Source of the DNA: a virus
Direction: 5' to 3' (one strand)
Length of the DNA: 64,000 nt
IMG/VR virus record: IMGVR_UViG_3300032326_001134
Span: 32,001 to 96,000 of that record
Position 1 is the stretch's first letter. Each line of letters starts with the position of its first letter. The translations under genes were made by a program, and so were the position numbers. Positions 10,429 through 25,523 of this stretch are shown here, one piece after another. Under the pieces are notes generated by a model. The model had not been told where the DNA came from. It made no database searches and saw only the letters and a list, made by a program, of their open reading frames with translations.

Positions 10429-10429
10429 T

Positions 10430-10831
10430 ATGGCAAAAAAATTCCAAACGCCCATTGCACCACCATCCTTGTCTTCGGACCCTGCTGTTGGTGTGATGGG
10501 ATCCATATATTATAATACTGAAATAAATGCATTAAAGTATTATGATGGAGCCGCTTGGAGACCAATTTCATCTGGTGGTGGAGGTGGCGGAGGCACAGTA
10601 GAAATAGATTCCGCATACTACAATCAGCCAGAAGATGGAGTTTTGTTATATAACACAACTACAAATAATTTAGCAGTATCATACGAAAACGTATGGAGAG
10701 AATTAGCATATAGAACTCAATTTGATAGCCCAATTGACGGAGGAGATTCTTCCACTGGTGATTCAGAATGGGAATTAGTTTTAGATGGGGGTGAATCTGA
10801 CAATAACTCATTCTTAAATGCATACTACTAA
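10430..10831 (+). CDS. Small fibre adaptor protein with C-terminal DGG motifs
   Basis: Two GxxxYNT..L..Y...W motifs, poly-Gly linker, IDGG/LDGG. Confidence 0.6.
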   Translation: MAKKFQTPIAPPSLSSDPAVGVMGSIYYNTEINALKYYDGAAWRPISSGGGGGGGTVEIDSAYYNQPEDGVLLYNTTTNNLAVSYENVWRELAYRTQFDSPIDGGDSSTGDSEWELVLDGGESDNNSFLNAYY

Positions 10832-10870
10832 TAATATAAGTATTGTATAATAAGAAGAGGTGGTCAAATT

Positions 10871-13162
10871 ATGAAAACAAAGATTCAAATAAGAAGAGAT
10901 ACGGCTGCAAACTGGGCTAGTAATAACCCAATTCTATCAGCAGGTGAATTTGGCCTAGAGTCAGACACTCAAAAAATTAAAGTTGGTAATGGCTTAGCAA
11001 ATTGGGCAGCCAGACCATATATAAACGTTTTACCATCAGACCTTGCTGAACTTTCACAAGATGCAGTAAATAATGCATTAACTGCTGGTAACGGTATAAC
11101 AAAAGAATACGATGATTTAAATAATACGATCACCATATCAGTAGACACAAGTATTATTGCAAATAAAGATTATGTAGACAATGCAATTTCTGGAGTCTTG
11201 GACGGAGCACCAGGTTTACTTGATACATTAAAAGAATTAGCAGCAGCAATTGATGATGATCCTGCATTTTTTACAAGCGTAGCAACAAATCTTTCAAATC
11301 ACGAAGCAGACACAACAAACATACACGGAATTGCAGATTCAGCAGAACTAGCAACTAAGACATTTGCAGCAGAACTTCTTACAGGATCAACAAAGTCCAA
11401 TATTACAATTACTGGTGATAAAAACGGACTCATAATTACAGCTGAAAATGGAGTAGCAGACTCAACCACATCAGATCTTGCAGAAGGAACAAATCTTTAC
11501 TTTACAGACGAAAGAGCACAAGATGCAGCAAACACTGCAATTGTTGCTGGTGAAGGATTAGATAAAACATACGATGATGAATCCAACACAATCACCCTTG
11601 ATATTGATTCAACAGTAGTAACACTAACAGACACACAAGCTTTATCAAATAAGACTTTAACTTCTCCCGTTATAAACGGAGCAACAGTTGGAGGAGATAT
11701 TATTCCTTCATCTGATGCCACATATGATTTAGGATCTCCTGAAAATAAGTTTAAAGATTTGTATCTATCTGGTGCAACACTTTATCTAGATACAGCCACA
11801 ATAGAACTACACTCTGGAAATATTCAACTTAGCCACAGTGGAAACACTACAATAATACCAATTGGAAACGGGAACCATACAGTAGCCACCCTAGATGGTC
11901 AAGAAACACTATCAAATAAAACTTTAACTAGACCAACTATTAACGGACCAGAGATTACAGAAATTGGTGGAACTCCACGTATTCATGGAATCTATCTTCC
12001 ATCACCACATTTTATTACTTTTGAGGGTGCAACAAATGATGAGTTTGAAACAGTTTTAACAACTGTAAATCCAACAGCAGATCACACAATTGCTTTACCA
12101 GATGCTTCAGGAACAATTGCTTTAACCTCAGACATTGCTGAACTTTCACAGGATGCAATAGATAATGCAATTGTAGCTGGTGTAGGACTTGACAAAGTTT
12201 ACGATGACGAAGCAAATACAATAACACTTGATATAGATTCAACAGTAACAACAAACTCTGGAACACAAACCCTTACAAATAAAACTATATCATTTGCAAA
12301 GGGTACAATTAGTTCCGCTGTGGGATATGACAATATAGAAGGATTTTTTGGACAAAACAACATAGTTGTTCTTCAAGATGCCCTTGATAAGGGTGGAAAA
12401 CTTAATATATCTAACGAGGGTGTTATTACAGTTCCATTTCCTGGAAATGGATATACTACTGGAGTAGCAACGATAGGTGGCGGAACTAGAGTTATCATAA
12501 CAGTTTCTGGAAATAATATTACAGGAACCATTAATCAGTTTAATGATTCTTTAACAGATGCAAACTTTGCTACCACAGATGGCGTAGAGTCTCTTACAAA
12601 TAAAACTTTGACTTCGCCAAAAATTAATGAAGACGCAGTACTTTCAGCAACATCTTCAGAATTAAATATTCTAGATGGGGCTACCATATCAACAGCAGAA
12701 TTAAATTATGTTGAAGGTGTAGTTTATTCAATTCAGGATCAAATAGATGAAAAGGCTCCAACAGATAGTCCAGAATTTACTGGAAACGTAGAGCTACCTT
12801 CAACAACGGTATTTGGTTCAAATACAGGAACAAGCGCAGGAAAATATTTAAGAACAGACGGAACAAACGTTTCCTGGGCATATCCAGTAATTCCTTATGG
12901 AAGCGGTGGATCAGCTAATCCAGTAAATGGACAGCTATTCTTTAATATGGATACACTATCATTACAGATATTTATGGATGGACAGTGGATTAAACTAACA
13001 TCTTATAATATTGATGGTGGAAATCCATTTACAACATCATTTGCAAATACGTTTGACGGAGGAAGTCCTTCAGTAGAACCTACATCATCATTAGATGGAG
13101 GAAATGTTGATTCATTCCCACCTGCTTCAGAAGGAACAGAAACAGATGGAGGAGAAATATGA
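10871..13162 (+). CDS. Fibre protein with Mtd-N/hyaluronidase-N-type N-terminal domain
   Basis: IQIRRDTAANW..NPILSAGEFGLESDT..KVGNG..W; three QDA..A..AG.G..K.YDD..NTIT repeats; TLTNKT repeats; four C-terminal DGG motifs. Confidence 0.8.
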   Translation: MKTKIQIRRDTAANWASNNPILSAGEFGLESDTQKIKVGNGLANWAARPYINVLPSDLAELSQDAVNNALTAGNGITKEYDDLNNTITISVDTSIIANKDYVDNAISGVLDGAPGLLDTLKELAAAIDDDPAFFTSVATNLSNHEADTTNIHGIADSAELATKTFAAELLTGSTKSNITITGDKNGLIITAENGVADSTTSDLAEGTNLYFTDERAQDAANTAIVAGEGLDKTYDDESNTITLDIDSTVVTLTDTQALSNKTLTSPVINGATVGGDIIPSSDATYDLGSPENKFKDLYLSGATLYLDTATIELHSGNIQLSHSGNTTIIPIGNGNHTVATLDGQETLSNKTLTRPTINGPEITEIGGTPRIHGIYLPSPHFITFEGATNDEFETVLTTVNPTADHTIALPDASGTIALTSDIAELSQDAIDNAIVAGVGLDKVYDDEANTITLDIDSTVTTNSGTQTLTNKTISFAKGTISSAVGYDNIEGFFGQNNIVVLQDALDKGGKLNISNEGVITVPFPGNGYTTGVATIGGGTRVIITVSGNNITGTINQFNDSLTDANFATTDGVESLTNKTLTSPKINEDAVLSATSSELNILDGATISTAELNYVEGVVYSIQDQIDEKAPTDSPEFTGNVELPSTTVFGSNTGTSAGKYLRTDGTNVSWAYPVIPYGSGGSANPVNGQLFFNMDTLSLQIFMDGQWIKLTSYNIDGGNPFTTSFANTFDGGSPSVEPTSSLDGGNVDSFPPASEGTETDGGEI

Positions 13163-14226
13163 GTTCAATACAATTAAAAAGAGGAACAGCTTCTCAATGG
13201 TTTACAAAAAATCCAGTATTAAAAAATGGAGAGCTTGGAATTGAATTGGATACCAAAAGAATAAAGCTTGGCAATGGTACAACTCAATGGAGATCTTTAA
13301 GCTATATTACAGTGATACCAGCAGATTTACAAAACACTGTTGGATCTTACCTAGAAGTAGTAGAAAAAGGAAATCCTGGTGGACTAGCAACATTAAATAC
13401 AGAGGGTTACATACCAGACTCTCAAATTCCAGCATCAATTGCAAGAGATGCAGAGATTGTGACAAGCTATAATGAACTTGATGACCTGCCTACATTATTT
13501 AGCGGAAGCTATAATGATTTAACAAATAAGCCAAATTTATTTAGTGGATCATACACTAATCTAACAGATAAACCAGCGCTATTTAGTGGATCATACACCG
13601 ATCTAACAGATAAACCAACAATTCCAAGTTTAACTGGATATGCAACTGAAACATATGTTGGAACTGCAATTTCAAACCTTGTAAGCTCCGCACCAGAAAC
13701 TTTAAATACTCTTAATGAATTAGCAGAAGCATTAGGAGATGATGCTAATTATGCTACAACAATAAGCACAGCTCTTGGGCTTAAGGCCACAATTGAAAGC
13801 CCTACTTTTACTGGAACCGTGGGTGGAATAACAAAGTCAATGGTTGGTTTAGGCAATGTTGATAATACAACAGACGAAAACAAGCCAGTGTCTACACTAA
13901 CACAAACAGCACTAAACTCTAAAGCAGATAAGTTAACTTCAATTTCCGCAAAGTCTGAATCTTATACAGTGCAGACAACAGATTTAGGGAAACTAATTGA
14001 GATGTCTAATGGTGGAACAATTAGCATAGAAGACTCAGCATCTTTTCCAGAAGGATTTACAATAGATATATTGCAAACTGGAAGTTCACAGGTAACGGTT
14101 GCTGGAATTGGAACCACTATAATTAATGCAACACCAGGATTAAAGCTTAGAACACGATGGAGCAGTGCCACTTTGATCAAGAGAAGCCTAGACCTTTGGG
14201 TGCTTTTGGGAGACCTGGCAGCATAA
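13159..14226 (+). CDS. Fibre protein (Mtd-N-type N-terminus; conserved C-terminal ATPGLKLRTRWSS domain)
   Basis: IQLKRGTASQW..NPVL..GE; LFSGSYxDLTxKP repeats; APETLNTLNELA motif. Confidence 0.8.
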   Translation: MSSIQLKRGTASQWFTKNPVLKNGELGIELDTKRIKLGNGTTQWRSLSYITVIPADLQNTVGSYLEVVEKGNPGGLATLNTEGYIPDSQIPASIARDAEIVTSYNELDDLPTLFSGSYNDLTNKPNLFSGSYTNLTDKPALFSGSYTDLTDKPTIPSLTGYATETYVGTAISNLVSSAPETLNTLNELAEALGDDANYATTISTALGLKATIESPTFTGTVGGITKSMVGLGNVDNTTDENKPVSTLTQTALNSKADKLTSISAKSESYTVQTTDLGKLIEMSNGGTISIEDSASFPEGFTIDILQTGSSQVTVAGIGTTIINATPGLKLRTRWSSATLIKRSLDLWVLLGDLAA

Positions 14227-15032
14227 TGTTAAGAAGATTTGGTAAATCATCAAAAAGAAAAGCTAGGGTTCCAAACTTAGTTAATCTTACATTAAGTCAA
14301 GCCCAATCTTTATTGTCATCTCTTGGCATTAGCTATACAACAAGTATCACAAGCACTAGCGACCAGAGCATTAATGGTAAAGTTAGAGAGCAAAATGTTG
14401 CAGAAAATGAAACTAAATTAGTTGGAGACAATGTTGAGATAAACTATTATTCATTTAGCTTTACTCCTTTTGGATTTACCCCTTTTGGATTCACACCATT
14501 TAGCTTTACCCCTAATTTATGTTTCGTGGTGGGCACAGACATATTAATGGCTGACGGATCTACTAAAAAAATTGAAGACATTGTAATTGGAGATTCTTTA
14601 AAAAGCTTTAATATACCAAATTTAGACGACGACTACGACCCAGATTTAATGAACACAGAGAATGCGTGGATTACGCCATCTACAGATGACTTTATAATCA
14701 CGCCAACCACAGTAACATATATTGGCAGAAGGCCTGTGCTAAAAACAATTAAATTTAATAACCTGCACAGATGCACAGAAAACCATGCTATTTTTGTTAA
14801 CAGAGGTGGAGACTATCAATGGCTAAAGGCAAAAGATGTTCAGGTTGGGGACTCTTTTATTAAATTTGACAAAACTGAAGAAATGGTTTCAAATAAAGAG
14901 ACAATAGATGAGTTAACTGAGGTAGTAGCAATTGACTGTGAAATAAAAGATTTTTATTTTGCTAACGGCATATTGGTTCACAATATTACCGTTACGGCAC
15001 CACCAGGAACTACAACACAATGGGTTTCATAG
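14226..15032 (+). CDS. PASTA domain + (F[GS]FTP)4 repeats + Hint domain protein
   Basis: VPNLVNLTLSQAQSLL..GKV.EQ (PASTA); CFVVGT block A, TENH block B, YFANGILVHN; start moved to ATG 14226 (TAATG overlap). Confidence 0.88.
   Translation: MLRRFGKSSKRKARVPNLVNLTLSQAQSLLSSLGISYTTSITSTSDQSINGKVREQNVAENETKLVGDNVEINYYSFSFTPFGFTPFGFTPFSFTPNLCFVVGTDILMADGSTKKIEDIVIGDSLKSFNIPNLDDDYDPDLMNTENAWITPSTDDFIITPTTVTYIGRRPVLKTIKFNNLHRCTENHAIFVNRGGDYQWLKAKDVQVGDSFIKFDKTEEMVSNKETIDELTEVVAIDCEIKDFYFANGILVHNITVTAPPGTTTQWVS
14454..14513 (+). repeat. Four 15-bp coding repeats (FSFTP-FGFTP-FGFTP-FSFTP)
   Basis: Directly read; synonymous codons differ between units. Confidence 0.95.
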
Positions 15033-15068
15033 GATTTACAATTTAATATAAAAGCAGTAAAATGGGGA

Positions 15069-15097
15069 TTGCCAAATAACTGCAAAACCCATATAAT
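15069..15097 (+). promoter_or_regulatory. Sigma-A-type promoter
   Basis: TTGCCA-17-TATAAT; GGAGGT RBS before ATG 15129. Confidence 0.65.
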
Positions 15098-15128
15098 AGG
15101 GTAATAGAAATATATCGGAGGTAACAGA

Positions 15129-17489
15129 ATGTCTGTTAGATTGCAATTTAGAAGAGGTACCGCATCAGAGTGGTTTGATGCTGATACTGTATTGGGAGAA
15201 GCCGAAATTGGCTATGAAATTGATACAAAAAAGATTAAAGTTGGAAATGGAATTACAGCATGGAACTCTTTAAGCTACGTAAACGTTGTTCCATCCGATT
15301 TAGTAAACACATTAAATGATTATGTATTAGTAGGAGATGTTGGAAACGCAGGCGGACCAGCAAAATTAGATTCAGATGCAAACTTATTGCTTCCAAATGG
15401 AAGAATAATTTTAGAGGGTGGCACAAACAACGATTATGAAACCACTTTACTTGTAGTAGACCCTACAGCAGATAGAACAATTACTTTTAAAGATGAATCT
15501 GGAACGGTAGCACTACTTTCAGACATTGATGCTGTTATTGGTGGAGCTCCAGGTGCCTTAGACACACTTAATGAACTTGCTGCAGCAATTAATGATGATG
15601 CATCATATGCCGCTACAATAACAAATGCTTTAGCAACAATAACTCAAGGTGGACTAGATCACGTATCTGCTGTTACAAATGTACACGGTATAGCAGACGT
15701 GTCAGAACTTGCAACAAAGACATATGCAGACAATACAGCCACTTCAATATCAAATTCAGCTGTGAGCACACACCTATCTGTAACAACAAACGTACACGGA
15801 ATTGCAGACACTCAAGATTTAATGAGAAAATCTGGATCTACAATGACTGGAATTTTAACTTTAAGTGATGATCCAACATCTAATCTACATGCAGCAACAA
15901 AGAGGTATGTAGATGATCATGTAGACACACACAACGCATCAGGAAACGATGTACATGGTATAGCAGATACAACTGCTCTTGCCACAAAAACTTACGCAGA
16001 TAATACTGCAACAACTATTGCAACAACTATTGCAACAGATGCAATTAACCTATTAACTACTTCTGATATAGAAGAGGGTTCACGTTTATACTTTACTGCA
16101 GTTAGAGCACAAGATGAAGCAAAAAATGTTATGTCAGATGGAGCCAACGAGGTTGTTACAGACAGTCTAGAGGTATCTACAAATGACTTTAACGTTGGAG
16201 AAGTTGCAAAGGGATTAAGAACAACTGATTCATACACTAATCCAATGGCAGTATTTTCAACAGCAGCATCAGATTATGCACAGGTTGCTATTAAAAATAC
16301 AACAAATGCTCCAGCTTCATCTAGCGATCTTATTATTTATGCCTCAAACGGAAATGATGCTTCTGGTTGGATAGACATGGGAATTACTGCACCAACGTTC
16401 TCAGACCCAGACTTTACAATTACTGGTGGTAACGACGGTTATATCTTTATGGAAGCCCCAGTAGGAACAACTGGAGACGGAAATCTTGTTATAGCAACTG
16501 GTGGTAATGGTACACATAACCACATTGTTTTTGCCGCAGGAGGACTACAGTCTAACAATACGCAGATGACTATTTTCCCAGATGAAAATGTTCACATTGA
16601 AATTGATACACCTTCTACATCACCAACAACAGGTGCACTAACAGTAGTCGGTGGAGTTGGTATTCAGGGAGACTTGAATATTAACGGAGATGTTAATATT
16701 GAAGGAACTATTGTTTTTGGAGGAGAAGGCACAACTGTAGAGACATCAAACCTCTCAGTAACTGATCCACTAATTTTCACAGGAGATGGCAACGCATCAG
16801 ACATTGTTGACCTAGGCTTTATTGGAGAATATACTACTGGTGGTAGCACCAAGTATTCAGGTATTGTCCGTGATGCCTCTGACGGAGTTATAAAGGCTTT
16901 TAAACACGCATCAACAAAGCCAACTTCAACCGTTAACTTTGCAGAAGCTGGAATTGAGTATTCAGACATACAAGTTGCAGCAATAAATGCATCATCATTA
17001 ACAGTAGGGGATATTTCAAATACAGAATTTGGATATCTAAATGGAGTAACATCAGCAATTCAAGATCAACTAGACGATAAAGCTCCAACTGATACTCCAA
17101 CATTTACTGGCTTAGTAACAATAGCAGCATCTGGAATAGCATTTGCAGATGGTACTCAAACAAAAGAAGGTGTTCCATCAAGAACTCCAATTATTGCAAA
17201 AACATCAAATTATACTCTTTCATCACTAGCCGAAAGAGACAGCCTAATAGAAGTTGATTCGACAGACCCAGTAACAATCATGATTCCAACAAATTCTGCA
17301 GTCGCTTTCCCAATAGGAACGACATTAGATATACTTGGAGTAAATACAGGATTAATTACAATTCAAGGAGACTCTGGAGTAGCCGTAAACGCTACACCTG
17401 GATTAAAATTGCGTACACGATGGTCTTCATGTACACTACTTAAGCGTGGAGAAAACTCTTGGGTAGTATATGGAGATTTGAAAGAATAA
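15129..17489 (+). CDS. Fibre protein (Mtd-N-type N-terminus; conserved C-terminal ATPGLKLRTRWSS domain)
   Basis: LQFRRGTASEW; repeated NVHGIAD..LATKTYAD; TTGALTVVGGVGI; C-terminus paralogous to the 13159 ORF. Confidence 0.8.
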   Translation: MSVRLQFRRGTASEWFDADTVLGEAEIGYEIDTKKIKVGNGITAWNSLSYVNVVPSDLVNTLNDYVLVGDVGNAGGPAKLDSDANLLLPNGRIILEGGTNNDYETTLLVVDPTADRTITFKDESGTVALLSDIDAVIGGAPGALDTLNELAAAINDDASYAATITNALATITQGGLDHVSAVTNVHGIADVSELATKTYADNTATSISNSAVSTHLSVTTNVHGIADTQDLMRKSGSTMTGILTLSDDPTSNLHAATKRYVDDHVDTHNASGNDVHGIADTTALATKTYADNTATTIATTIATDAINLLTTSDIEEGSRLYFTAVRAQDEAKNVMSDGANEVVTDSLEVSTNDFNVGEVAKGLRTTDSYTNPMAVFSTAASDYAQVAIKNTTNAPASSSDLIIYASNGNDASGWIDMGITAPTFSDPDFTITGGNDGYIFMEAPVGTTGDGNLVIATGGNGTHNHIVFAAGGLQSNNTQMTIFPDENVHIEIDTPSTSPTTGALTVVGGVGIQGDLNINGDVNIEGTIVFGGEGTTVETSNLSVTDPLIFTGDGNASDIVDLGFIGEYTTGGSTKYSGIVRDASDGVIKAFKHASTKPTSTVNFAEAGIEYSDIQVAAINASSLTVGDISNTEFGYLNGVTSAIQDQLDDKAPTDTPTFTGLVTIAASGIAFADGTQTKEGVPSRTPIIAKTSNYTLSSLAERDSLIEVDSTDPVTIMIPTNSAVAFPIGTTLDILGVNTGLITIQGDSGVAVNATPGLKLRTRWSSCTLLKRGENSWVVYGDLKE

Positions 17490-17500
17490 AGGAGATATAA

Positions 17501-18787
17501 ATGACTAAAAGATCTGGTAGAAAATCGCAGGCAGCCAATGACTTTATTGAGCCATTAAAGCCTACTATTACAAACGCAGTAAATGTCACTAACAGACCAT
17601 ACAATAATGGATCGGTAGACATTAGTTTTGTCATGAGCCCAGCATCTCCAATAGCAACATCTTATTTAGTTCAAACGGTTGTCCCAGAAGGACAAACCCC
17701 GATAACTGCAACAGGAACCTCGTCACCAGTTACTATTACTGGACTACTCTCTGCAACTAATTATAGATTTACAATAACCGCATCTAATGATATTGGAGAT
17801 TCACCAGTATCTGATCAAAGCTCAGAAGTTTACGTTATAACAACTCCTAAAACTCCACAAACTCCCTCTATATCAAACAACGGAGCAGAAACAAATAACG
17901 TTACTTGGACTGCTACTCAATTTGATGGTGGCTCCGCAGTTACAAACTATGAATTATTAGATGATGAAGGAAGAACCTGGTCATATAACGCATCAACATT
18001 TTCCGCAAATATTAATGATGGAGGAAACTCCTATCAGCGAGTTAAAGTAAGAGCAAGAAACGCCAATGGCGCCTCAGAGTATTCAGAGTTTAGCAACCAG
18101 GTTCAAACAACACCATTTAGCTTTGCACCGTTTGGCTTTACCCCATTTAGCTTTACCCCGTTTGGATTTACACCGTTCGGATTTACACCGTTCGGATTTA
18201 CACCAAAATCAGTCGGAGCAGAAACAATTATAAAATCAAAAGTTCCAGAGGGATTAATATTAGCCCACAATCTAAGCGTAGGAGATGTTTTATATTCTGC
18301 TAACATTGAAGGTATAGATGTTTCAAATACAGCAATATTAGAATATTTACAAAACTGGTCCGCAAATAGCGCATCAATATCTCAAGATGTAGAAACAACT
18401 ATTGTTGCAATGGCAGCAAGAATTTCTTCTGAAGGCTCTGTTGTTATTAATGGAAACAAATACTCAAAGCAACACTTTATTTTAGTAAAAAGAAATAATG
18501 AAATTCAATTCCAGCCATCAGCAGATGTTTTAGAGACAGATTTTATATTTTCACCATCAGAATCAGATTGGGTAGCAGTTACTGATTATAAAATTACAGA
18601 TCAAAGAGAACTTTTAGTTTCAATTGACGTTGAGCCGTTTGATGTATTTTTTACAGACAATGCATTGGTTCATGACTCATATAGAGCCTCAGACGATCCA
18701 AACGTACTGACTTCTAGCGATGAAACATTTAGTGATAAATTAGATGCAATGTATCAACAATGGAGAGATTCTCAAGACCCACAATAG
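17501..18787 (+). CDS. 2x Fn3 + (F[GS]F[TA]P)6 repeats + atypical Hint domain protein
   Basis: Fn3 motifs ITGL..ATNYRFTITASN..G and DGGSAVTNY..VRARNANG; Hint-like S1-VGAET..LSVGD, SKQH, VFFTDNALVHD-S. Confidence 0.82.
   Translation: MTKRSGRKSQAANDFIEPLKPTITNAVNVTNRPYNNGSVDISFVMSPASPIATSYLVQTVVPEGQTPITATGTSSPVTITGLLSATNYRFTITASNDIGDSPVSDQSSEVYVITTPKTPQTPSISNNGAETNNVTWTATQFDGGSAVTNYELLDDEGRTWSYNASTFSANINDGGNSYQRVKVRARNANGASEYSEFSNQVQTTPFSFAPFGFTPFSFTPFGFTPFGFTPFGFTPKSVGAETIIKSKVPEGLILAHNLSVGDVLYSANIEGIDVSNTAILEYLQNWSANSASISQDVETTIVAMAARISSEGSVVINGNKYSKQHFILVKRNNEIQFQPSADVLETDFIFSPSESDWVAVTDYKITDQRELLVSIDVEPFDVFFTDNALVHDSYRASDDPNVLTSSDETFSDKLDAMYQQWRDSQDPQ
18116..18205 (+). repeat. Six 15-bp coding repeats (FSFAP FGFTP FSFTP FGFTP FGFTP FGFTP)
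   Basis: Directly read. Confidence 0.95.
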
Positions 18788-18799
18788 TCAGGATTTAAT

Positions 18800-19447
18800 T
18801 TGTTTAAGCAATTAAAAAAATTACACCTAATGGGACTTTCTGGTGTAAAATATTTTAAGGGAAAACCAATACCCAAATTTAGAAGGTACCCAGAGTATAT
18901 TAAGGGAACCTGGTCTCAATATACTGTTTTTATGGACAAGGGAAACAATTTAGCAATAGAGTGTTTATATAAAGACAATAATAACGAATCTGGAACAATA
19001 GTCATGTCTAATTTTATTAATAATGACTACCCAATCTCATGGGCAACAATTATTATAGATGGATACGATAAAGATCATTACACTGCAGTGACAGATAGAT
19101 TTTATACAAATCCACTACATAGAAGAAAAAAATACCTAGAATCTTTAGCACTTATTGGATACCCAGTATGGTGTACATTCTTTAAAATATTACCAAGACT
19201 TGGACCAGGATATACTGAAGGAACACAAAAAATGGCTTTAAGCGGACTGTCTATGATATCGTCAGCTGCTAAAAAAAGAATAATTTCAAATAGCAATAAG
19301 GCAGAAAAGGTTGTTAAGGGTGGACTCGTAGAAGGTTTAGTTCCTTCTATAAATATGCCAGAAGAACTAGCTGTGTACAAAGACCCAGTGTTCCCAGCAT
19401 TATTTCACTCTATAAGCGTTTGGGAGCCAAATGATAAAAAATATTAA
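18800..19447 (+). CDS. Hypothetical protein, possible GNAT-fold acyltransferase
   Basis: DRFYTNPLHRRKKY resembles GNAT motif A; GYTEGTQKM resembles the downstream motif. Confidence 0.4.
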   Translation: MFKQLKKLHLMGLSGVKYFKGKPIPKFRRYPEYIKGTWSQYTVFMDKGNNLAIECLYKDNNNESGTIVMSNFINNDYPISWATIIIDGYDKDHYTAVTDRFYTNPLHRRKKYLESLALIGYPVWCTFFKILPRLGPGYTEGTQKMALSGLSMISSAAKKRIISNSNKAEKVVKGGLVEGLVPSINMPEELAVYKDPVFPALFHSISVWEPNDKKY

Positions 19448-19994
19448 ATCCATAAATAACGAACTATTATTTTCAGAATATAATAAAATGGTTTCTGAAA
19501 TGTATGAGCACGTATATAAGTTTAGTCCAGGATTAAAACTTGGATTTAAGCCTAAAAAAATATCTTTGGTAGACTATAGAACATTTAACTTTTTTGGCAT
19601 GTATAGTAAAAATATACACTCTTTATATAGAGAAATAAGCGGTATGACAAAAAGCTTATGTGCAGAAAGCAATATTAACTTTGAAAGAAATTCTTTTTAT
19701 TTGCTTGGCAATATAGTTAAAAATGAAACATTGCCAATAGGAACCTATATAAACTTTGCCCCAAACTATAAAACAACTTTTATGGGCCTCTATGTAATTA
19801 GATCAAATAATGATAGAATATCTATAGATAACAAAATACTTGAACTGGAGGAAGGACAATTAATTATGCTAAACTCTGGATCAAAAATTTTATTTGAAAA
19901 TATTAGCGATAATTTAGTAATGTTATCATTTAATATCTCCCCCATAGAATATCTTTATAAACAATACTATCAAAAATGGATACCAATCTCATGA
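19431..19994 (+). CDS. Degenerate 2OG-Fe(II) oxygenase-like paralog of the 22169 ORF
   Basis: YRTFNFF..IHSLYREIS vs WREYNVF..IHKLYKNIS; both end Q(K/H)WIP; lacks HxH/H ligands. Confidence 0.55.
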   Translation: MIKNIKSINNELLFSEYNKMVSEMYEHVYKFSPGLKLGFKPKKISLVDYRTFNFFGMYSKNIHSLYREISGMTKSLCAESNINFERNSFYLLGNIVKNETLPIGTYINFAPNYKTTFMGLYVIRSNNDRISIDNKILELEEGQLIMLNSGSKILFENISDNLVMLSFNISPIEYLYKQYYQKWIPIS

Positions 19995-20707
19995 TCAATA
20001 TAGAATTTATTCCAAAATTTAGACTGTACAGTAAAGTATTTCCAGAGCCAGTTAGCGTAGCTTCCTCGATACCAGAATGGTGGAAAACACAGGAAAGTCA
20101 TTTAAATAATGATCAAAATGTTTACAGGGGAACAATGCTTCTTACCGTAAAGAAATGTCAATCAGTATTTGACTCAATGACTTTTGGATATTATTTAAAA
20201 TGCCCAACCGATATATCTATAGATGCTACTGGAGACACTTTAAGGGTTCAGCTAACTTCAGATATAATGGGAATGCAGCAACATCTTGTTTCAAACCATT
20301 TAAAAGAACAAATGGCTAAATACCCGATTCCAGAATATTTTCATCCAGAAGTTGTCAGAATACATCCAATGTGGCTGGTGCAAACAGAAGAAGGCTATAG
20401 CTCTTTATTTGTTGCACCAATGCACGGAGACGATTCTCCAATCAAAGCCGTCCCAGGAGTAATAGACACAGACGATTACCCGTCAGACGGATACTTATCT
20501 TTTTTTGTTAAAAAAGGGTTTAAGGGAATAATTAAACAGGGGACTCCAATTATTCAGGTTATTCCTTTTAAACGAGATGACTGGGAAAGCTCTATTAATA
20601 AAGAAAAAGATTCTGACTTTAAAATAAAAGAAAAAAATTTAGGAGTAAGATCAGTTTTTCAAAACGGATACAGAATGAAGTTTTGGAAAAAGAAAACGTA
20701 TAGATGA
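19991..20707 (+). CDS. DUF6065-like protein
   Basis: IPEWWK, TVKKC..FDSMTFGY, PGVIDTD, IKQGTPIIQVIPFKRDDW; ATGA overlap gives start 19991. Confidence 0.6.
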   Translation: MINIEFIPKFRLYSKVFPEPVSVASSIPEWWKTQESHLNNDQNVYRGTMLLTVKKCQSVFDSMTFGYYLKCPTDISIDATGDTLRVQLTSDIMGMQQHLVSNHLKEQMAKYPIPEYFHPEVVRIHPMWLVQTEEGYSSLFVAPMHGDDSPIKAVPGVIDTDDYPSDGYLSFFVKKGFKGIIKQGTPIIQVIPFKRDDWESSINKEKDSDFKIKEKNLGVRSVFQNGYRMKFWKKKTYR

Positions 20708-21435
20708 CAACTAAAATAGTAAACAGGGTTCCATACGAGTCTGACTCTTGGTCATTGATGTCTAACATGAATTTTGAACAAATAGTTAATTTTTCTAATG
20801 TATTTAACAAATGGAAAGAATGGTCATACGTTAAAAATAGCCCATTGCATAAAAAATCTATACTTAAACCAGTAAACATGTATGTGTCTCATTTTTCAAA
20901 TCAGCCAGAAGTAATAAGAATTTCTGACACATCAGCGTATCTAAGATACTATAGTTATGCAGACATACTTATACAAATAGCAGACCCACCAATGGGGCAT
21001 AAGGGTATATTTAAATCTAGTCCAATAAATAGTTTATTTTATGCTACGGATAAATGCTGGTTAAGACAATTTTATCCTTCTCCAAATGAGTACAATATAA
21101 ATAAAAAAAATGCTATATCGGATAGGATGTTTAAAATATATATACCTTGGTTTTTAGACATGGATATAAAATATTCAGTTAAAACAAATAAAGAAGATTC
21201 TTCAATTGTAGCAATAGAAAAAGAAGACTATTTTACAAAAACAAATGACAATGTTATAATAAAAGAAGCAAATTTTGTTGATTTTTATTTTACAAAATCT
21301 GAAAATCATATGCAAGATAAAGTATGCGGATTAATAAAAAAAGATTCGTATTTATTTGATATAGAAATTAAAGCAGATAAAAAAACAATTAAAAAGATTA
21401 TAAGGGAATATGAAAAAAAAAGAATTAAAGGTTAA
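20704..21435 (+). CDS. Hypothetical protein (possibly divergent DUF6065-like)
   Basis: FKIYIPWF and GLIKKDSYLFDI weakly echo its neighbours' PMW and GIIKQGTPIIQ motifs. Confidence 0.5.
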   Translation: MTTKIVNRVPYESDSWSLMSNMNFEQIVNFSNVFNKWKEWSYVKNSPLHKKSILKPVNMYVSHFSNQPEVIRISDTSAYLRYYSYADILIQIADPPMGHKGIFKSSPINSLFYATDKCWLRQFYPSPNEYNINKKNAISDRMFKIYIPWFLDMDIKYSVKTNKEDSSIVAIEKEDYFTKTNDNVIIKEANFVDFYFTKSENHMQDKVCGLIKKDSYLFDIEIKADKKTIKKIIREYEKKRIKG

Positions 21436-22168
21436 ATTTACCCCAGCCTTTATTATGAATACAGAAGGCATATCAGACTATAGTAATTTTAATGAGCCAC
21501 AAGAGTCAAAAAGATATATTCCGTCTTGGTATAAAAAGCTATCTAAATTTTACAAATCAAATAGCATCAGCAAACTACACCCAGTAAACGATAGAGGAAC
21601 GGACGGCAGCGCAGCCTCAACAAAATTATGCATGCCATTTTTTGATGCATTAACATCTGGATACATGTATACCCTAGATTACGATCTTAATGTGAGCCAG
21701 GATAAAAATGGATTTCCTACACTTTCTTGGGAGGGGTCTAATATGATAGTCGATAAAAGATTAATGATAGATGTCCCAGTACCTACACAGCATCACCCAA
21801 TGCATTATGGGTGGAAGGTTAATTGGTATTCAGAAACCCCAAAAGGATATTCTTTGTTAATAACGCATCCATTAAATAGACACGATTTACCATTTACAAC
21901 AATGAGCGGAATAATAGACGCAGACCTTTGGCACACTCCAGTATTTACATCCTTCTTCCTAAAACGCAACTTTATTGGTATAATACCTAAAGGAACTCCT
22001 ATATTTCAAATGATTCCTATTAAAAGAGAAGAGTGGTCTCTTGAAATAGATTATTCAAATGAAAATATAGAACAAAATCAGATTAAGGATGAAAAAAGAA
22101 GATCTTTAATATATGCATATTATAAAAATATAATATGGCAAAGAAAACAATATAGAGGGAAAATATAA
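21410..22168 (+). CDS. DUF6065-like protein (paralog of 19991)
   Basis: IPSWYK, TKLCMPFFDALTSGY, TPKGYSLLITHPLNR, SGIIDAD, IPKGTPIFQMIPIKRE. Confidence 0.65.
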   Translation: MKKKELKVKFTPAFIMNTEGISDYSNFNEPQESKRYIPSWYKKLSKFYKSNSISKLHPVNDRGTDGSAASTKLCMPFFDALTSGYMYTLDYDLNVSQDKNGFPTLSWEGSNMIVDKRLMIDVPVPTQHHPMHYGWKVNWYSETPKGYSLLITHPLNRHDLPFTTMSGIIDADLWHTPVFTSFFLKRNFIGIIPKGTPIFQMIPIKREEWSLEIDYSNENIEQNQIKDEKRRSLIYAYYKNIIWQRKQYRGKI

Positions 22169-22813
22169 ATGGAAAATATGTATATGAATCAGCCAACAGG
22201 TAAAGAGCATAAATTTTTTGAGAGATACTTAGACAATGATCTCCCAGAGCTTGCAGAATTTTTGCAAAACCAATATGCCAATATGGAAACCCTTAAATTG
22301 TCTGGAATAACAAAGGTCACGCCAAGAGATCACTGGCTATCATCTGATAGCGTGTCCACAATCAAATGGAGAGAGTACAATGTTTTTCAGTTTTATCATG
22401 AGTCTATACATAAGCTGTACAAAAATATATCGGAAACTATTAAGGAAGCCTGTGAATACTATGGTATCAACTTTGAAGAACAGAAATACATGGTACAGGG
22501 TTGGTTTAATATTAATTACAATCATAGTGGTAAGCTTGATTGGCATGATCACGGTGGCCCTTATGCCCCGTATTTTCATGGTTACTATTGTGTAAACGCA
22601 GAGCCTTCAACTACTTACTATAGTGTTTTTGGTAATCAGGTAGAGAACCACAATAAAAATAATCGAATGATTATTTCAGAAATGGGTCACCCGCATGCAA
22701 TGGGTGACTGGGACTGGGAAGGTCCTAGAGTAACTATTGCTTATGACATAATGCCTTTAAAAAGCTTAATTACAAACAAGGCAGAGCCACAACATTGGAT
22801 ACCATTACTGTGA
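22169..22813 (+). CDS. 2OG-Fe(II) oxygenase (HxH type, TIGR02466-like)
   Basis: WFNIN..WHDH..HGYYCV..HPH..RVTIAYD. Confidence 0.75.
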   Translation: MENMYMNQPTGKEHKFFERYLDNDLPELAEFLQNQYANMETLKLSGITKVTPRDHWLSSDSVSTIKWREYNVFQFYHESIHKLYKNISETIKEACEYYGINFEEQKYMVQGWFNINYNHSGKLDWHDHGGPYAPYFHGYYCVNAEPSTTYYSVFGNQVENHNKNNRMIISEMGHPHAMGDWDWEGPRVTIAYDIMPLKSLITNKAEPQHWIPLL

Positions 22814-23628
22814 CAAGCAATATTGGAATTTGTATATATTCATATCAAAACAAAAAGCTATTAGACTTAATAGAAGAAATTAAAGAAAAGTCTAGTAAAA
22901 AAAATATGTTGTATTTTTATGTCATAGATCAAAATAATTTGGACAGAACAAGAGGGCTCGACGATCCAGAATTTTATCATTCCATTTCATATAACTATGT
23001 AAAATGGGATTCAATTAAAAGCCCAATTGAATATAAACAACAAGCATTAAACATTTTAAATAAAACATATTATATGCAGGTTGAAGACAACTTAAGCTTA
23101 ATACAAAATTGGGACGAATATGCAATAGAATTCATATCAAACAATAAAAACTCAATTTTATCTGGAAATTCTACCGTCTCGCTAGATAATAAAAACTTGT
23201 TTCAGATAGCAGCTACAAGAACGCCATCAAAACATTTTAATGAGATAAAGTATATAGATAGAAATTTTTTATTTGGTCTTACTGAAGATTTTAAAAAGAT
23301 AGATTACCCTAAATATTTAAAGTACAACGGGGAAGAAGAATCTATTTCAATAGATATGCTAAACAGGGGAATAAAGATTTATAACTTCCCAGATGAATAT
23401 TTATCAATACATAAAGTTGATATAGAAAAAGAATATGTTCCCTTTTCTTTAAACCATAATTATAATAAATTTGTTAGCCTGTATAAGGATCAAGTTAAAA
23501 AGCATTTTGGTTTAAAAATAGAGACATTGCCGTTTGAAGATAGCGATGTCCTGTACGACCCATTGCAGTCTCAAACTGACAAAATTGGTGGGTTAAGATA
23601 TATTAATAAAGTTAAGGAGCTTAGATAA
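22810..23628 (+). CDS. Divergent Gnt1/GlcNAc-transferase-like glycosyltransferase (possibly inactive)
   Basis: Aligns by eye to the 53907 ORF: I.I.S(Y/F)Q..L..I.KSS, YYxQ....xxWD, GEE...S....G; DSH motif replaced by EDN; GTGA overlap start. Confidence 0.55.
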   Translation: MTSNIGICIYSYQNKKLLDLIEEIKEKSSKKNMLYFYVIDQNNLDRTRGLDDPEFYHSISYNYVKWDSIKSPIEYKQQALNILNKTYYMQVEDNLSLIQNWDEYAIEFISNNKNSILSGNSTVSLDNKNLFQIAATRTPSKHFNEIKYIDRNFLFGLTEDFKKIDYPKYLKYNGEEESISIDMLNRGIKIYNFPDEYLSIHKVDIEKEYVPFSLNHNYNKFVSLYKDQVKKHFGLKIETLPFEDSDVLYDPLQSQTDKIGGLRYINKVKELR

Positions 23629-24170
23629 TGTTAATAAAAATAGTAGAAGACTTTATAACAGAAGAAGATGCAAATACTTTAATTAATGAAATGAAAAACC
23701 CGTCAGAAAGAAATGAGTATCCTGTATATTACAAAGACCGAAATGGTGGAACCGCATTCCCTTATAATAAAAAAGTTATGTCATTGTTAAAAAAATATGC
23801 AATACATTCAAATAAAATACAAAAAGAATTTTTTGGATTAGAAAAAGATGTTATTGTTACAAAAGCTTTTGGTTCGTTTTGGATGCCTGGAACAAGCGGA
23901 GCCCCACACATAGATGCAATAGAAAAAGAGCCATTTATTGAATACAGTACAGTAATCTATTTAAATGACGAATATGAGGGTGGAGAAATTTATTTTCCAA
24001 GACAATCTTTCGAATATAGTCCTAAAAAATACTCAGCAGTATTTTTTCCAGGAAATAGCATTGACTATGTCCACGGAGTAAAAGAAATAACAAGCGGTAG
24101 TAGATTTACAGCTCTCTATATGCAGTCTACAAAAAAAGACTTTATTGATCCAGATTTTGAAGGGTGCTAG
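23628..24170 (+). CDS. Prolyl-4-hydroxylase-like 2OG-Fe(II) oxygenase
   Basis: HID, STVIYLNDEYEGGEIYF, HGV, GSRF. Confidence 0.9.
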   Translation: MLIKIVEDFITEEDANTLINEMKNPSERNEYPVYYKDRNGGTAFPYNKKVMSLLKKYAIHSNKIQKEFFGLEKDVIVTKAFGSFWMPGTSGAPHIDAIEKEPFIEYSTVIYLNDEYEGGEIYFPRQSFEYSPKKYSAVFFPGNSIDYVHGVKEITSGSRFTALYMQSTKKDFIDPDFEGC

Positions 24171-24171
24171 A

Positions 24172-24825
24172 ATGAATTATAAAGAGTTATCACTAGGGGC
24201 AGTATATTATAAAAATATTATAGAAGACCCACAGAGTGTCATCAATAAAATAGAAGAACTAGAGCAAAAAAGAAACGAGTCAGAAGGATACAGGTCGGAG
24301 TTTGTAAAGCCATGGCAAGCATGGGACTATAATAACGGAAATAAAGAAAAAACTATTTTTTGCTGGCAAAAGTTTTTACCAAAGCCTGAAGACATAAAGG
24401 TGGATGACTTGTTCTATAAAGAGCAGTTTGAGATATCTTCAATTCTTTTTGATGGACTAGAAAAAGGACTTAAGCATTATTTTTCTTTATACCCATATGC
24501 AGAAAAAAATATTAAATCTAGAGAAAAAACAATGCATCTTTTAAAATATAAAGAAAGCGGTTTCCTACCAGCGCACTCAGATCATGGAATAAGTAGCAGG
24601 GTATTGTCTGCTCTTTTATATTTAAATGATGATTACGAAGGAGGGAACATAAGATTCCCTCACGCAGAAATAAACATTAAGCCAGAAGCTGGAAGTTTAT
24701 TATTTTTTCCTTCAAACTTTGTTTATGTACATGAAGTAGATGCAGTAACAAGTGGAACAAGATACTCTTTGCCTAACTGGTATCATAATAGAAAAAACGC
24801 ATATTACTCAGATGGAACAGAATAA
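24172..24825 (+). CDS. Prolyl-4-hydroxylase-like 2OG-Fe(II) oxygenase
   Basis: HSD, SALLYLNDDYEGGNIRF, FFPSNFVYVHEV, GTRYS; start moved to ATG 24172. Confidence 0.9.
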   Translation: MNYKELSLGAVYYKNIIEDPQSVINKIEELEQKRNESEGYRSEFVKPWQAWDYNNGNKEKTIFCWQKFLPKPEDIKVDDLFYKEQFEISSILFDGLEKGLKHYFSLYPYAEKNIKSREKTMHLLKYKESGFLPAHSDHGISSRVLSALLYLNDDYEGGNIRFPHAEINIKPEAGSLLFFPSNFVYVHEVDAVTSGTRYSLPNWYHNRKNAYYSDGTE

Positions 24826-25523
24826 TGTTTATCGTTACAGGATCTAGTAGTGGAATAGGAAATGCAATTGTAAACAGGCTTTTAAAAAACGGACATTCTG
24901 TTTCAGGAATTTCAAGAAACATTCCAAAAAATGGTTCTGGATTTAAAACATATCAAGCAGACGTGTCTGATAAAAAATCAATTATAGAAATTGCAGAAGA
25001 CCTAAAATCACAAAACATAACAGTAAGTGGCTTAATAAATTGTGCTGGCTTATCACAAGATTTTTTTATTGCTGATTGGACAAAAATGCCAGCGGAAGAA
25101 ATTCAATCAATTTTTGGAACAAATATTATTGGAATAATAAACACATGCCAGTCATTTGTGCCATTAATGAATAGTAAGGTTCACACTCCAATTATAAACA
25201 TTAGCAGTCTCGCAGCTCATGCAAATTCAGATATTTCAGTCTATGCATCTAGTAAGTATGCTGTTAATGGATTTACTAGATCTTTATCTAGAGTTTTAAG
25301 AGAAACATCAATAAGGCCAAATTGTATAGCTCCAGGAATGATTAAAACAGAAATGACAAAGCACCTACCAGAAGAAATATTTAATAGAATTTTGTTTTTA
25401 TCTGGTCAAACCCTTAGCAGCAAAACATTTACGACAGAAGATATATGCGATGTGGTAGACATGTTAATTGATGAAAAATCAAACAGCTTAACTGGACAGA
25501 CATTCCACATAGGCGGATACTAA
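24825..25523 (+). CDS. Short-chain dehydrogenase/reductase (FabG-like)
   Basis: TGSSSGIG, INCAG, NISS, YASSK, IAPGMIKTEM, LTGQTFHIGG. Confidence 0.93.
   Translation: MFIVTGSSSGIGNAIVNRLLKNGHSVSGISRNIPKNGSGFKTYQADVSDKKSIIEIAEDLKSQNITVSGLINCAGLSQDFFIADWTKMPAEEIQSIFGTNIIGIINTCQSFVPLMNSKVHTPIINISSLAAHANSDISVYASSKYAVNGFTRSLSRVLRETSIRPNCIAPGMIKTEMTKHLPEEIFNRILFLSGQTLSSKTFTTEDICDVVDMLIDEKSNSLTGQTFHIGGY

What the first reader, a model, noticed from the sequence alone, without database searches (positions are those of the whole stretch)
14454..18205. Same F-[GS]-F-T-P pentapeptide conserved in two otherwise unrelated proteins
Seen: 4 copies (14454-14513) and 6 copies (18116-18205). Synonymous codons vary (ttt/ttc, act/acc/aca, cct/cca/ccg), so selection acts on the peptide rather than being recent DNA slippage. 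The flanking domains differ and the two Hints are divergent, yet the repeat is almost invariant. This suggests a shared recognition or substrate motif. Each unit offers Pro (hydroxylation), Thr/Ser (O-glycosylation) and alternating Phe (hydrophobic face, FG-repeat-like).
Basis: partly seen in the sequence, partly recalled or inferred. Interest (0 to 1): 0.8.

Follow-up and report, generated by a model that had tools for sequence, protein, structure and literature searches.

The report
Aromatic-proline repeat before self-cleaving Hint cap
Two tail-fibre partner proteins of an uncultured 115-kb phage carry the same Phe-Gly/Ser-Phe-Thr-Pro repeat directly in front of a self-cutting intein-like domain; this repeat is the best-conserved part of a large, apparently undescribed viral protein family whose genes sit next to oxygenase genes.

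Summary
In detail: there are 4 units at 14454-14513 and 6 at 18116-18205, against 0.13 pattern matches expected by chance. Selection acts on the peptide. The closest ortholog differs at 9 of 90 bases in the array, and all 9 changes are silent.

The two proteins are not unrelated. Both follow one plan: a binding module (PASTA, or two FN3 domains), the array, then a BIL/Hint autoprocessing domain whose Cys or Ser nucleophile lies 1-2 residues after the last unit.

This plan defines a virus-restricted family. I found 87 distinct array proteins in IMG/VR, and 1245 representatives at E<=1e-10. The array residues are almost the only invariant columns.

Nine natural proteins stop 3-9 residues after the array and have no Hint domain. 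The mature product is therefore most likely the binding module with the array as its C-terminal tail, and the Hint domain is a self-removing cap.

A 2OG-oxygenase-fold gene starts within 1.5 kb downstream in 19 of 28 lineages, and in all the Hint-less forms. More distant relatives carry other aromatic/proline repeats at the same position.

This scan has already noted the same family on other DNA (e1-5995472, e1-5954739). I found no published description.

The parts
13159..14226 (+). Tail fibre gene A (355 aa). It has an Mtd_N-type N-terminus, and its C-terminal ~70 aa are shared with fibre B.
   Evidence: Pfam Mtd_N E=1.5e-14. Tail-fibre PHROGs match. Its stop overlaps the ATG of gene A by one base.
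14226..15032 (+). Gene A (268 aa): PASTA module, then the array, then a type-A-like BIL/Hint domain, then a 15-aa tail.
   Evidence: Pfam PASTA E=3e-8. AF2 gives pLDDT ~90 for the PASTA and Hint domains. Foldseek top hits are BIL domains 6y75 and 2lwy. Homologs start at this ATG.
14454..14513 (+). Array A: 4 units (FSFTP, FGFTP, FGFTP, FSFTP).
   Evidence: AF2 pLDDT is below 50 over residues 81-95.
14520..14984 (+). Hint domain of gene A. It runs from Cys1 (14520-14522), through a block B T-E-N-H motif, to the terminal His-Asn (14979-14984). The +1 residue is Ile.
   Evidence: Translation, alignment, fold, family column counts.
15129..17489 (+). Tail fibre gene B (786 aa), with an Mtd_N-type N-terminus. 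Its C-terminal domain is ~40% identical to Gordonia phage minor tail proteins.
17501..18787 (+). Gene B (428 aa): two FN3-like domains, then the array, then a Ser-type Hint domain, then a conserved 36-aa tail.
   Evidence: Pfam fn3 E=9e-10. The Hint half is homologous to that of gene A and to the family profile.
18116..18205 (+). Array B: 6 units (FSFAP, FGFTP, FSFTP, then FGFTP three times).
   Evidence: All 9 base differences from ortholog L032 are silent.
18209..18676 (+). Hint domain of gene B. It runs from Ser1 (18209-18211), through a block B S-K-Q-H motif, to the terminal His-Asp (18671-18676). The +1 residue is Ser.
   Evidence: Ser at the nucleophile column in 48 of 71 family members, Cys in 20.
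19431..19994 (+). Paralog of the 22169 gene; 2OG-oxygenase-fold family.
   Evidence: Iterated profile searches place both genes in one family; a profile of the family alignment matches both genes in the record.
22169..22813 (+). 2OG-Fe(II) oxygenase-fold protein (PF13759-like).
   Evidence: AF2 pLDDT 84.8. Foldseek top hits are 2rg4 and 3bvc, followed by prolyl hydroxylases. The Atlas search gave the same lead. No Pfam sequence hit.
23628..24170 (+). 2OG-oxygenase-like protein, paralog of the 24145 gene.
   Evidence: PHROG 61/2297; same iterated family as the 24145 gene.
24145..24825 (+). 2OG-FeII_Oxy_3 (prolyl-4-hydroxylase-type) oxygenase.
   Evidence: Pfam PF13640 E=1.6e-16.
19976..22168 (+). 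Two DUF6065-like paralogs (19976-20707 and 21410-22168) flanking an unknown gene (20704-21435).
   Evidence: phrog_7084 E=3e-43 and 6e-38. DUF6065 matches 6 of 13 family members.
22795..25523 (+). The rest of the enzyme cluster: a weak GlcNAc-transferase-like gene (22795-23628) and a short-chain dehydrogenase (24825-25523). The span also contains the two oxygenase genes listed separately above.
   Evidence: Pfam PF11397 E=0.0017, below its cut-off; adh_short E=4e-38.

Best explanation
The F-[GS]-F-[TA]-P array is the hallmark junction element of a large, virus-restricted family of tail-fibre partner proteins. These proteins are built as a binding module (PASTA or tandem FN3), then an aromatic/proline pentapeptide array, then a C-terminal BIL-type Hint domain. 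Each gene follows a fibre gene.

Inferred chemistry: the Hint domain makes an N-S or N-O acyl shift at its Cys1 or Ser1, which lies 1-2 residues after the last unit. It then cuts itself off. Ligation of the short C-terminal tail is possible in some members.

The mature virion-associated product would then be the binding module with the array as an exposed, unstructured, very hydrophobic C-terminal tail. The array is selected for its peptide sequence and works in the mature protein, not merely as a spacer to the Hint domain. The Hint domain acts as a removable cap, comparable in role to the self-cleaving chaperone domains of other fibres.

What the tail does is not shown. It could dock onto the fibre, stick to the host wall, or be modified by the adjacent oxygenases.
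For: Architecture and fold:
- PASTA and fn3 are Pfam hits.
- AF2 models the PASTA and Hint domains at pLDDT ~90 and the array at below 50.
- Foldseek top hits are BIL domains 6y75 and 2lwy. The family profile matches 2lwy at E=1e-7.

Catalytic columns in 71 distinct family members:
- Nucleophile: Ser 48, Cys 20.
- Block B: Ser/Thr 70, His 59.
- The array ends 1-2 residues before the nucleophile in 40 of 71.

Family size: 71 viral loci; 6712 representatives at E<=1e-3 and 1245 at E<=1e-10.

Conservation:
- The invariant alignment columns are almost all array residues.
- The window versus L032 comparison gives 9 silent and 0 replacement changes.

Natural Hint-less forms:
- 9 of 87 array proteins stop 3-9 residues after the array, on seven contigs: L019, L022, L086, L114, L133, L143 and L159.
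- No Hint remnant lies nearby in six of the nine.

Fibre linkage: a fibre gene ends just upstream in 69 of 71 loci.

BIL chemistry is taken from PMC4031507. [quoted passage not shown]
Against: - No protein-level data exist. Cleavage is inferred from conserved residues and from the Hint-less forms.
- Block B His is Gln or Glu in 12 of 71 members, so some Hint domains may be inactive.
- In L019, L022 and L159 a Cys-less Hint-like ORF is kept as a separate gene. This hints at a second, non-catalytic role for the domain.
- The short tails after the Hint domain are conserved. A discarded piece would not obviously need that, so splicing or ligation may occur.
- Copy number varies from 4 to 23, AF2 confidence in the array is low, and distant relatives carry other repeats. 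All three fit a looser, composition-level constraint.
Confidence: 0.6

Rival explanations
1. The array is a dedicated substrate for the phage's own tailoring enzymes, with Pro (or Thr/Phe) hydroxylated by the adjacent 2OG oxygenases and possibly then glycosylated. It is compatible with the best explanation rather than exclusive of it.
For: - The window encodes four 2OG-fold proteins, an SDR and a weak Hyp-GlcNAc-transferase-like gene within 0.7-6.7 kb downstream of gene B.
- A 2OG-fold gene starts within 1.5 kb downstream in 19 of 28 array-gene clusters, and within 7 kb in 23 of 28.
- All 10 copies of the 22169 family in four virus records lie just downstream of an FN3-type array gene.
- Every Hint-less array gene is still followed by a 2OG-fold gene, usually as the next or next-but-one gene. 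That places five of the nine genes 30-271 bp downstream. In L019/L022/L159 one lies beyond the Hint-remnant ORF, and in L143 about 2 kb downstream after two DUF6065-like genes.
- There is a precedent: the PBCV-1 viral prolyl 4-hydroxylase acts on Pro-Ala-Pro-Lys repeats (PMC3634087, citing its ref 15).
Against: - The adjacency may only be inherited gene order in one broad phage group.
- The same FGFTP unit sits next to two different oxygenase families, PF13640-type after PASTA genes and PF13759-like after FN3 genes. Motif and enzyme therefore do not co-vary.
- PF13640 genes also occur elsewhere in the genome.
- Five clusters, and the 70-kb record G001 (L068) with YSFTP arrays, show no oxygenase.
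- Some distant relatives have repeats without Pro.
- The targets could equally be the fibres or host molecules.
Confidence: 0.3
2. The array is only a flexible low-complexity linker between the binding module and the Hint domain. It is kept uniform by repeat homogenisation and a composition constraint, and it has no sequence-specific role.
For: - AF2 pLDDT is below 50 over the array.
- Copy number ranges from 4 to 23 and varies among close orthologs.
- Distant Hint homologs have other aromatic/proline, poly-Pro or Gly-rich repeats at the same place.
Against: - All 9 base differences from the ortholog are silent.
- The same unit is kept in both paralogs, and across relatives whose flanking domains are 25-30% identical. 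It supplies nearly all the invariant columns.
- The array is retained, with nothing beyond it to link to, in nine Hint-less proteins.
- The array is unusually hydrophobic for a solvent-exposed linker.
Confidence: 0.15
3. The Hint thioester or ester is not hydrolysed. Instead it is passed to an amine or hydroxyl group on the fibre, the short C-terminal tail or the host wall. The array would then become an internal covalent tether, as in BIL-driven ubiquitin-like conjugation or type-A BIL ligation.
For: - The closest folds are the BUBL BIL2 domain and the C. thermocellum BIL domain.
- Type-A BILs can ligate their flanks without a +1 nucleophile (PMC4031507).
- The tails after the Hint domain are conserved, and +1 is Ser in 42 of 71 members.
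- The Hint-less forms end in a basic residue, as a Lys-ligated product would.
Against: - The Hint-less forms cannot make a thioester, yet they are maintained in several lineages.
- The +1 residue and the terminal Asn/Asp are not conserved across the family.
- Cleavage dominates even in type-A BILs (PMC4031507).
Confidence: 0.1

Closest known systems
Bacterial intein-like (BIL) domains, types A and B (C. thermocellum BIL, PDB 2LWY; Tetrahymena BUBL BIL2, PDB 6Y75)
   Same: Same Hint fold and a profile match. Shared features are the Cys/Ser nucleophile, the block B T/S-x-x-H motif, no requirement for a +1 nucleophile, self-cleavage expected to dominate, and location in variable surface or secreted proteins.
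   Different: The domains here are terminal caps of phage tail-fibre partner proteins and are always preceded by an aromatic/proline array. A Ser1 / terminal Asp / +1 Ser subtype dominates (48 of 71). I found no published phage-appendage example.
Self-cleaving C-terminal intramolecular chaperone domains of phage fibres and tailspikes (Peptidase_S74 type; from my own knowledge)
   Same: A C-terminal domain of an appendage protein that removes itself after doing its job and leaves a mature C-terminus.
   Different: The fold and chemistry are unrelated, and there is no Pfam S74 hit. The resemblance is in role only.
Hedgehog/Hog autoprocessing
   Same: An N-terminal functional module is released by a C-terminal Hint domain through a (thio)ester. 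1at0 is among the fold hits.
   Different: There is no sterol-recognition region after the Hint domain, only 15 or 36 residues. No lipid adduct is implied.
Viral prolyl 4-hydroxylase with proline-repeat substrates (PBCV-1; PMC3634087)
   Same: A virus encodes both P4H-type 2OG oxygenases and short tandem Pro-containing repeats in its own proteins.
   Different: Here the enzyme-substrate link is only gene adjacency. The repeat is aromatic (FGFTP), not Pro-Ala-Pro-Lys.
FG-repeat nucleoporins and elastomeric Pro/Gly pentapeptide repeats (from my own knowledge)
   Same: Short Phe/Gly or Pro/Gly periodic units that are predicted to be disordered.
   Different: There are no hydrophilic spacers, the arrays are only 20-100 residues long, and there is no homology. 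The resemblance is in composition only.

Membership tests
Hint superfamily / BIL domains | Hint fold | tested here: met
   AF2 model of gene A. Foldseek hits 6y75 at E=5e-11 (TM 0.80 normalised to the target) and 2lwy at E=1e-9. The family profile matches 2lwy at E=1.1e-7.
Hint superfamily / BIL domains | N-terminal Cys or Ser nucleophile (block A) | tested here: met
   Cys at 14520 and Ser at 18209. The aligned column holds Ser in 48 and Cys in 20 of 71 members.
Hint superfamily / BIL domains | Block B Thr/Ser-x-x-His | tested here: met
   T-E-N-H in gene A and S-K-Q-H in gene B. Family-wide: Ser/Thr 70 of 71, His 59 of 71.
Type A BIL | C-terminal His-Asn with no +1 Cys/Ser/Thr | tested here: met
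   Met for gene A (His-Asn then Ile). Gene B has His-Asp then Ser, so it does not fit type A.
Hint superfamily / BIL domains | Demonstrated self-cleavage | not testable with these tools
   Only indirect evidence: nine natural proteins end 3-9 residues after the array.
Canonical intein | Inserted in a conserved host protein whose two halves are joined; intein-free alleles are contiguous | tested here: not met
   Only 15 or 36 residues follow the Hint domain. Hint-less relatives simply end after the array.
Canonical intein | +1 Cys/Ser/Thr after the terminal Asn | tested here: inconclusive
   Gene A has Ile (not met). Gene B has Ser after a terminal Asp. Family-wide the +1 residue is Ser 42, Lys 14, Arg 5.
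Hedgehog/Hog | Sterol-recognition region after the Hint domain | tested here: not met
   The tails are 15 and 36 residues long.
Pentapeptide-repeat proteins (A[DN]LXX beta-helix) | Pfam pentapeptide match and a four-sided beta-helix | tested here: not met
   No Pfam hit. AF2 gives no regular structure, with pLDDT below 50.
Peptidase_S74 fibre chaperone | S74 domain at the C-terminus | tested here: not met
   No Pfam or PHROG hit of that kind.
Virus-encoded P4H plus repeat substrate | P4H-type gene co-encoded with the repeat protein | tested here: met
   PF13640 at 24145-24825. A 2OG-fold gene starts within 1.5 kb downstream in 19 of 28 clusters.
Virus-encoded P4H plus repeat substrate | Hydroxylated residues in the repeat | not testable with these tools
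   This needs mass spectrometry or an enzyme assay.

The most novel reading that the evidence does not exclude
The array protein, its Hint cap and the adjacent oxygenases would form one maturation system for phage adhesins. In this reading the Hint domain keeps a very hydrophobic aromatic/proline tail soluble, or presents it, until the dedicated 2OG oxygenases hydroxylate it. Glycosylation may follow. The Hint domain then removes itself and leaves a modified sticky tail that anchors the PASTA or FN3 binding module to the fibre tip or to the Gram-positive wall. That would be a new post-translational pathway for virion appendages, and it would give a first substrate for the abundant orphan 2OG oxygenases of aquatic phages.
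Probability: 0.2. Interest if true: 0.85.

Novelty: new variant of a known kind. Interest (0 to 1): 0.62.

Why it matters
Hint/BIL domains are known, but I found no published description of one used as a removable cap on phage receptor-binding accessories. The family is large: 1245 representatives of 50%-identity clusters at E<=1e-10. It is practically confined to viruses.

2OG-Fe(II) oxygenases are among the commonest unexplained genes of aquatic phages. Here they are tightly and repeatedly adjacent to one kind of repeat protein, which provides a concrete candidate substrate that can be tested with peptides and mass spectrometry.

The natural Hint-less alleles define the likely mature product without any experiment.

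A compact Ser1/Asp-terminal Hint domain of about 155 residues, and an aromatic tail that may be self-adhesive, could also interest protein engineers.

Tried and rejected
- **Close cultured relatives.** Megablast of 13000-19500 against cultured phages found nothing. tblastn found only Hint-level hits in Vibrio, Erwinia and Dickeya phages. The Erwinia jumbo-phage protein has collagen-like repeats before its Hint domain, not an aromatic array.
- **Literature.** 'FGFTP' appears only in two unrelated papers. 'Hint domain + phage + tail fiber' returned only intein reports. 'Bacterial intein-like + phage + structural protein' returned nothing.
- **Relations among the downstream gene families.** Profile-profile comparison showed none.
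- **The 22169 family.** Pfam and PDB sequence searches gave nothing. Only the predicted fold identified it.
- **Cellular genomes.** Two true hits lie on small MAG contigs. Two others are spurious antisense frames in high-GC DNA, so no prophage-based host assignment is possible. One call failed because alignment A3 lacked a conserved block.
- **A 'docking code' between the fibre C-terminus and the array.** The fibre C-terminal domain also occurs in Gordonia phages that have no array protein in the phage collection. The idea is therefore unsupported, and it cannot be tested without a multimer prediction.
- **Stop-codon recoding or selenocysteine at the Hint Cys position in L019/L022.** Rejected. 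The stops are TAG and TAA. They are followed by a ribosome-binding-site-like sequence and a new ATG in one gene, and by no Hint-coding sequence in the other.
Full report
**Observation.**
- The window reads FSFTP-FGFTP-FGFTP-FSFTP at 14454-14513 and FSFAP-FGFTP-FSFTP-FGFTP-FGFTP-FGFTP at 18116-18205.
- A degenerate codon pattern for one unit matches exactly these 10 places. Shuffled sequence gives 0.13 matches on average.
- Tandem Repeats Finder reports 15-base periods with 76% and 85% matches.
- The complete 115,110-base IMG/VR virus record, of which the window is bases 32001-96000, holds no further array.

**The two genes.**
- Gene A starts at the ATG at 14226, not at the upstream ATG of the mechanical ORF. 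All homologs begin there, and this ATG overlaps the stop of the preceding fibre gene.
- Gene A consists of a PASTA domain (Pfam E=3e-8), the array, two residues, and a Hint domain with Cys1, T-E-N-H and terminal His-Asn followed by Ile. A 15-residue tail follows.
- Gene B (17501-18787) has two FN3-like domains, the array, one Lys, and a Hint-like domain with Ser1, S-K-Q-H and terminal His-Asp followed by Ser. A 36-residue tail follows.
- The two Hint halves are homologous (27% identity, E=1e-7).
- AF2 on a 32-sequence alignment models the PASTA and Hint domains of gene A at pLDDT ~90 and the array at below 50.
- Foldseek places the Hint domain closest to the BIL2 domain of the Tetrahymena BUBL locus and to the Clostridium thermocellum BIL domain, ahead of inteins and Hedgehog. 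A family profile also hits 2lwy best.

**Family.**
- A word-indexed search found 22 metagenomic homologs. All 19 that cover the PASTA/FN3-array-Hint plan carry the array between the N-terminal module and the Hint domain (P0019 lacks an N-terminal module); the other three hits (P0020-P0022 range, specifically P0020 and P0021) match only the Hint part or lack the array.
- All four combinations of PASTA or FN3 with a Cys-type or Ser-type Hint domain exist.
- In the alignments the invariant columns are almost all array residues.
- A scan of IMG/VR gave 71 loci, and a strict DNA pattern gave 85 stretches.
- Many phages carry a PASTA-type gene and an FN3-type gene a few kb apart. Multi-domain versions of 914-977 residues also occur.
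- An exhaustive profile search found 6712 representatives at E<=1e-3, 1245 at E<=1e-10 and 110 at E<=1e-30.
- Of the 168 proteins held after that search (the 150 listed plus earlier hits), 74 carry at least two strict units.
- The 66 others I inspected mostly carry a different aromatic/proline or proline-rich repeat just before the nucleophile, for example YSFTP, FFPP, PFFPGFG, YYNPPPED, poly-Pro or GFYH. A few are fragments or show no repeat there.
- In 185,579 species genomes only two small MAG contigs are true hits. The family is therefore essentially viral.

**Selection.**
- The ortholog in L032 (86% protein identity) has the same six units. It differs at 9 of 90 bases, and all 9 changes are synonymous.
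- Across 71 arrays, 387 strict units use 100 different DNA spellings.
- Copy number ranges from 4 to 23 and differs among close orthologs.

**Catalytic residues.** In 71 distinct array-plus-Hint proteins the counts are as follows:
- Nucleophile column: Ser 48, Cys 20.
- Block B first position: Ser/Thr 70. Block B His: 59.
- Terminal residue: Asp 49, Asn 18.
- +1 residue: Ser 42, Lys 14, with others in smaller numbers.

The N-terminal chemistry is the conserved part. According to PMC4031507, type A BILs have His-Asn and lack a +1 nucleophile; they can ligate, but cleavage dominates. Type B BILs only cleave.

**Natural Hint-less forms.**
- Of 87 distinct array-bearing ORFs, 71 continue into a Hint domain, 7 run off the locus, and 9 stop 3-9 residues after the array. 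The nine are in L019 (two genes), L022 (two genes), L086, L114, L133, L143 and L159.
- In L019, L022 and L159 the PASTA-type gene is followed by a separate Hint-like ORF that lacks the nucleophile. The other six have no Hint-like sequence nearby.
- These alleles show that the binding module plus array, with a free C-terminus, is a viable product. This is the strongest indirect evidence that the Hint domain removes itself, and that the array functions in the mature protein rather than as a spacer.

**Neighbourhood.**
- In 69 of 71 loci a fibre gene whose C-terminal part resembles the window's fibres ends just upstream. That C-terminal domain is about 40% identical to Gordonia phage minor tail proteins.
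- The portal is 57% identical to those of Streptomyces phages.
- With the PASTA domain, this suggests an actinobacterial host, but does not prove it. The window's GC content is 33-37%.
- Iterated profile searches group the downstream genes into paralog families: 23628 with 24145 (PF13640), 19431 with 22169, and 19976 with 21410 (DUF6065).
- The 22169 family had no sequence-level annotation. AF2 models it well (pLDDT 84.8) and it matches PF13759-type structures, then prolyl hydroxylases and other 2OG dioxygenases. An Atlas search gave the same lead.
- A 2OG-fold gene starts within 1.5 kb downstream of the array gene in 19 of 28 sequence clusters that have enough flank, and within 7 kb in 23 of 28.
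- All ten copies of the 22169 family in four virus records lie just downstream of FN3-type array genes. PF13640 genes also occur elsewhere in these records.
- Every Hint-less array gene is still followed by a 2OG-fold gene.
- Counter-examples exist. Five clusters show no oxygenase, and neither does a 65%-complete record with YSFTP arrays.
- PASTA-type and FN3-type genes share the same unit but have different oxygenase families next to them.

**Reading.**
- The best-supported account is a self-removing BIL/Hint cap on tail-fibre partner proteins, whose mature C-terminal tail is the array.
- The oxygenase-substrate idea is a reasonable second layer (about 0.3).
- A pure-linker reading is weakened by the silent-only divergence and by the Hint-less alleles.
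- A thioester-transfer tether is possible for some subtypes, but it cannot be general.

**Prior notes.** This scan had already flagged and followed up the same family in two other genomes (e1-5995472 and e1-5954739). I treated those notes as leads. My fold, family and residue checks reach the same conclusion independently. The Hint-less alleles, the silent-substitution test and the oxygenase adjacency counts are new here.

Noticed in passing
L019:9962-10921 and 18987-19706; L022:9269-10229 and 18294-19007; L159; L086; L114; L133; L143: These are natural alleles in which the array protein ends 3-9 residues after the last unit. Three contigs (L019, L022, L159) keep a separate Hint-like ORF without the nucleophile. 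The Hint-less FN3-type genes of L019 and L022, and those of L086, L114, L133 and L143, have no Hint-like ORF downstream.
   Followed up: yes
window 19431-24825: The enzyme cluster is built of paralog pairs: 19431 with 22169 (2OG fold), 19976 with 21410 (DUF6065-like), and 23628 with 24145 (PF13640 family). This mirrors the duplicated fibre-plus-array gene pair upstream.
   Followed up: partly
window 22795-23628: A weak, sub-threshold Pfam match (E=0.0017) to PF11397. From memory, this is the family of the Skp1 hydroxyproline GlcNAc-transferase. It lies beside the P4H-type oxygenases.
   Followed up: no
L024:7910-10651, L037:7880-10687, L040:7964-10795, L042:7886-10696: Proteins of 914-944 residues with several PASTA-like segments ending in the same array plus a Ser-type Hint domain. 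They are a third architecture in phages that also carry the FN3 type.
   Followed up: no
window 8158-17489: Three consecutive genes (10871-13162, 13159-14226, 15129-17489) match Pfam Mtd_N at the N-terminus. The preceding gene at 8158-10428 matches fibre- and structural-type PHROGs but had no Mtd_N hit. The last two fibres share a C-terminal domain about 40% identical to Gordonia phage minor tail proteins.
   Followed up: partly
L080:1990-3432 (Erwinia phage pEa_SNUABM_2 gp110): A virion structural protein of a cultured jumbo phage has collagen-like Gly-X-Y repeats and a C-terminal Cys-type Hint domain ending His-Asn. It shows that Hint-capped virion proteins exist in isolates, and it has no aromatic array.
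   Followed up: partly
P0037 (1990 aa), P0041, P0094: These metagenomic proteins match the array part of the profile many times (20 stretches in P0037, with H-A-F-T-V/P units). Arrays in P0041 and P0094 flank Cys-rich segments rather than sitting only before a Hint domain.
   Followed up: no
L163, L164: Array-like peptides in Streptomyces and Solirubrobacteraceae DNA are antisense or off-frame readings of other high-GC repeats, not genes.
   Followed up: yes
window 36456-42743: A 2095-residue ORF lies downstream of the head genes. I did not examine it.
   Followed up: no
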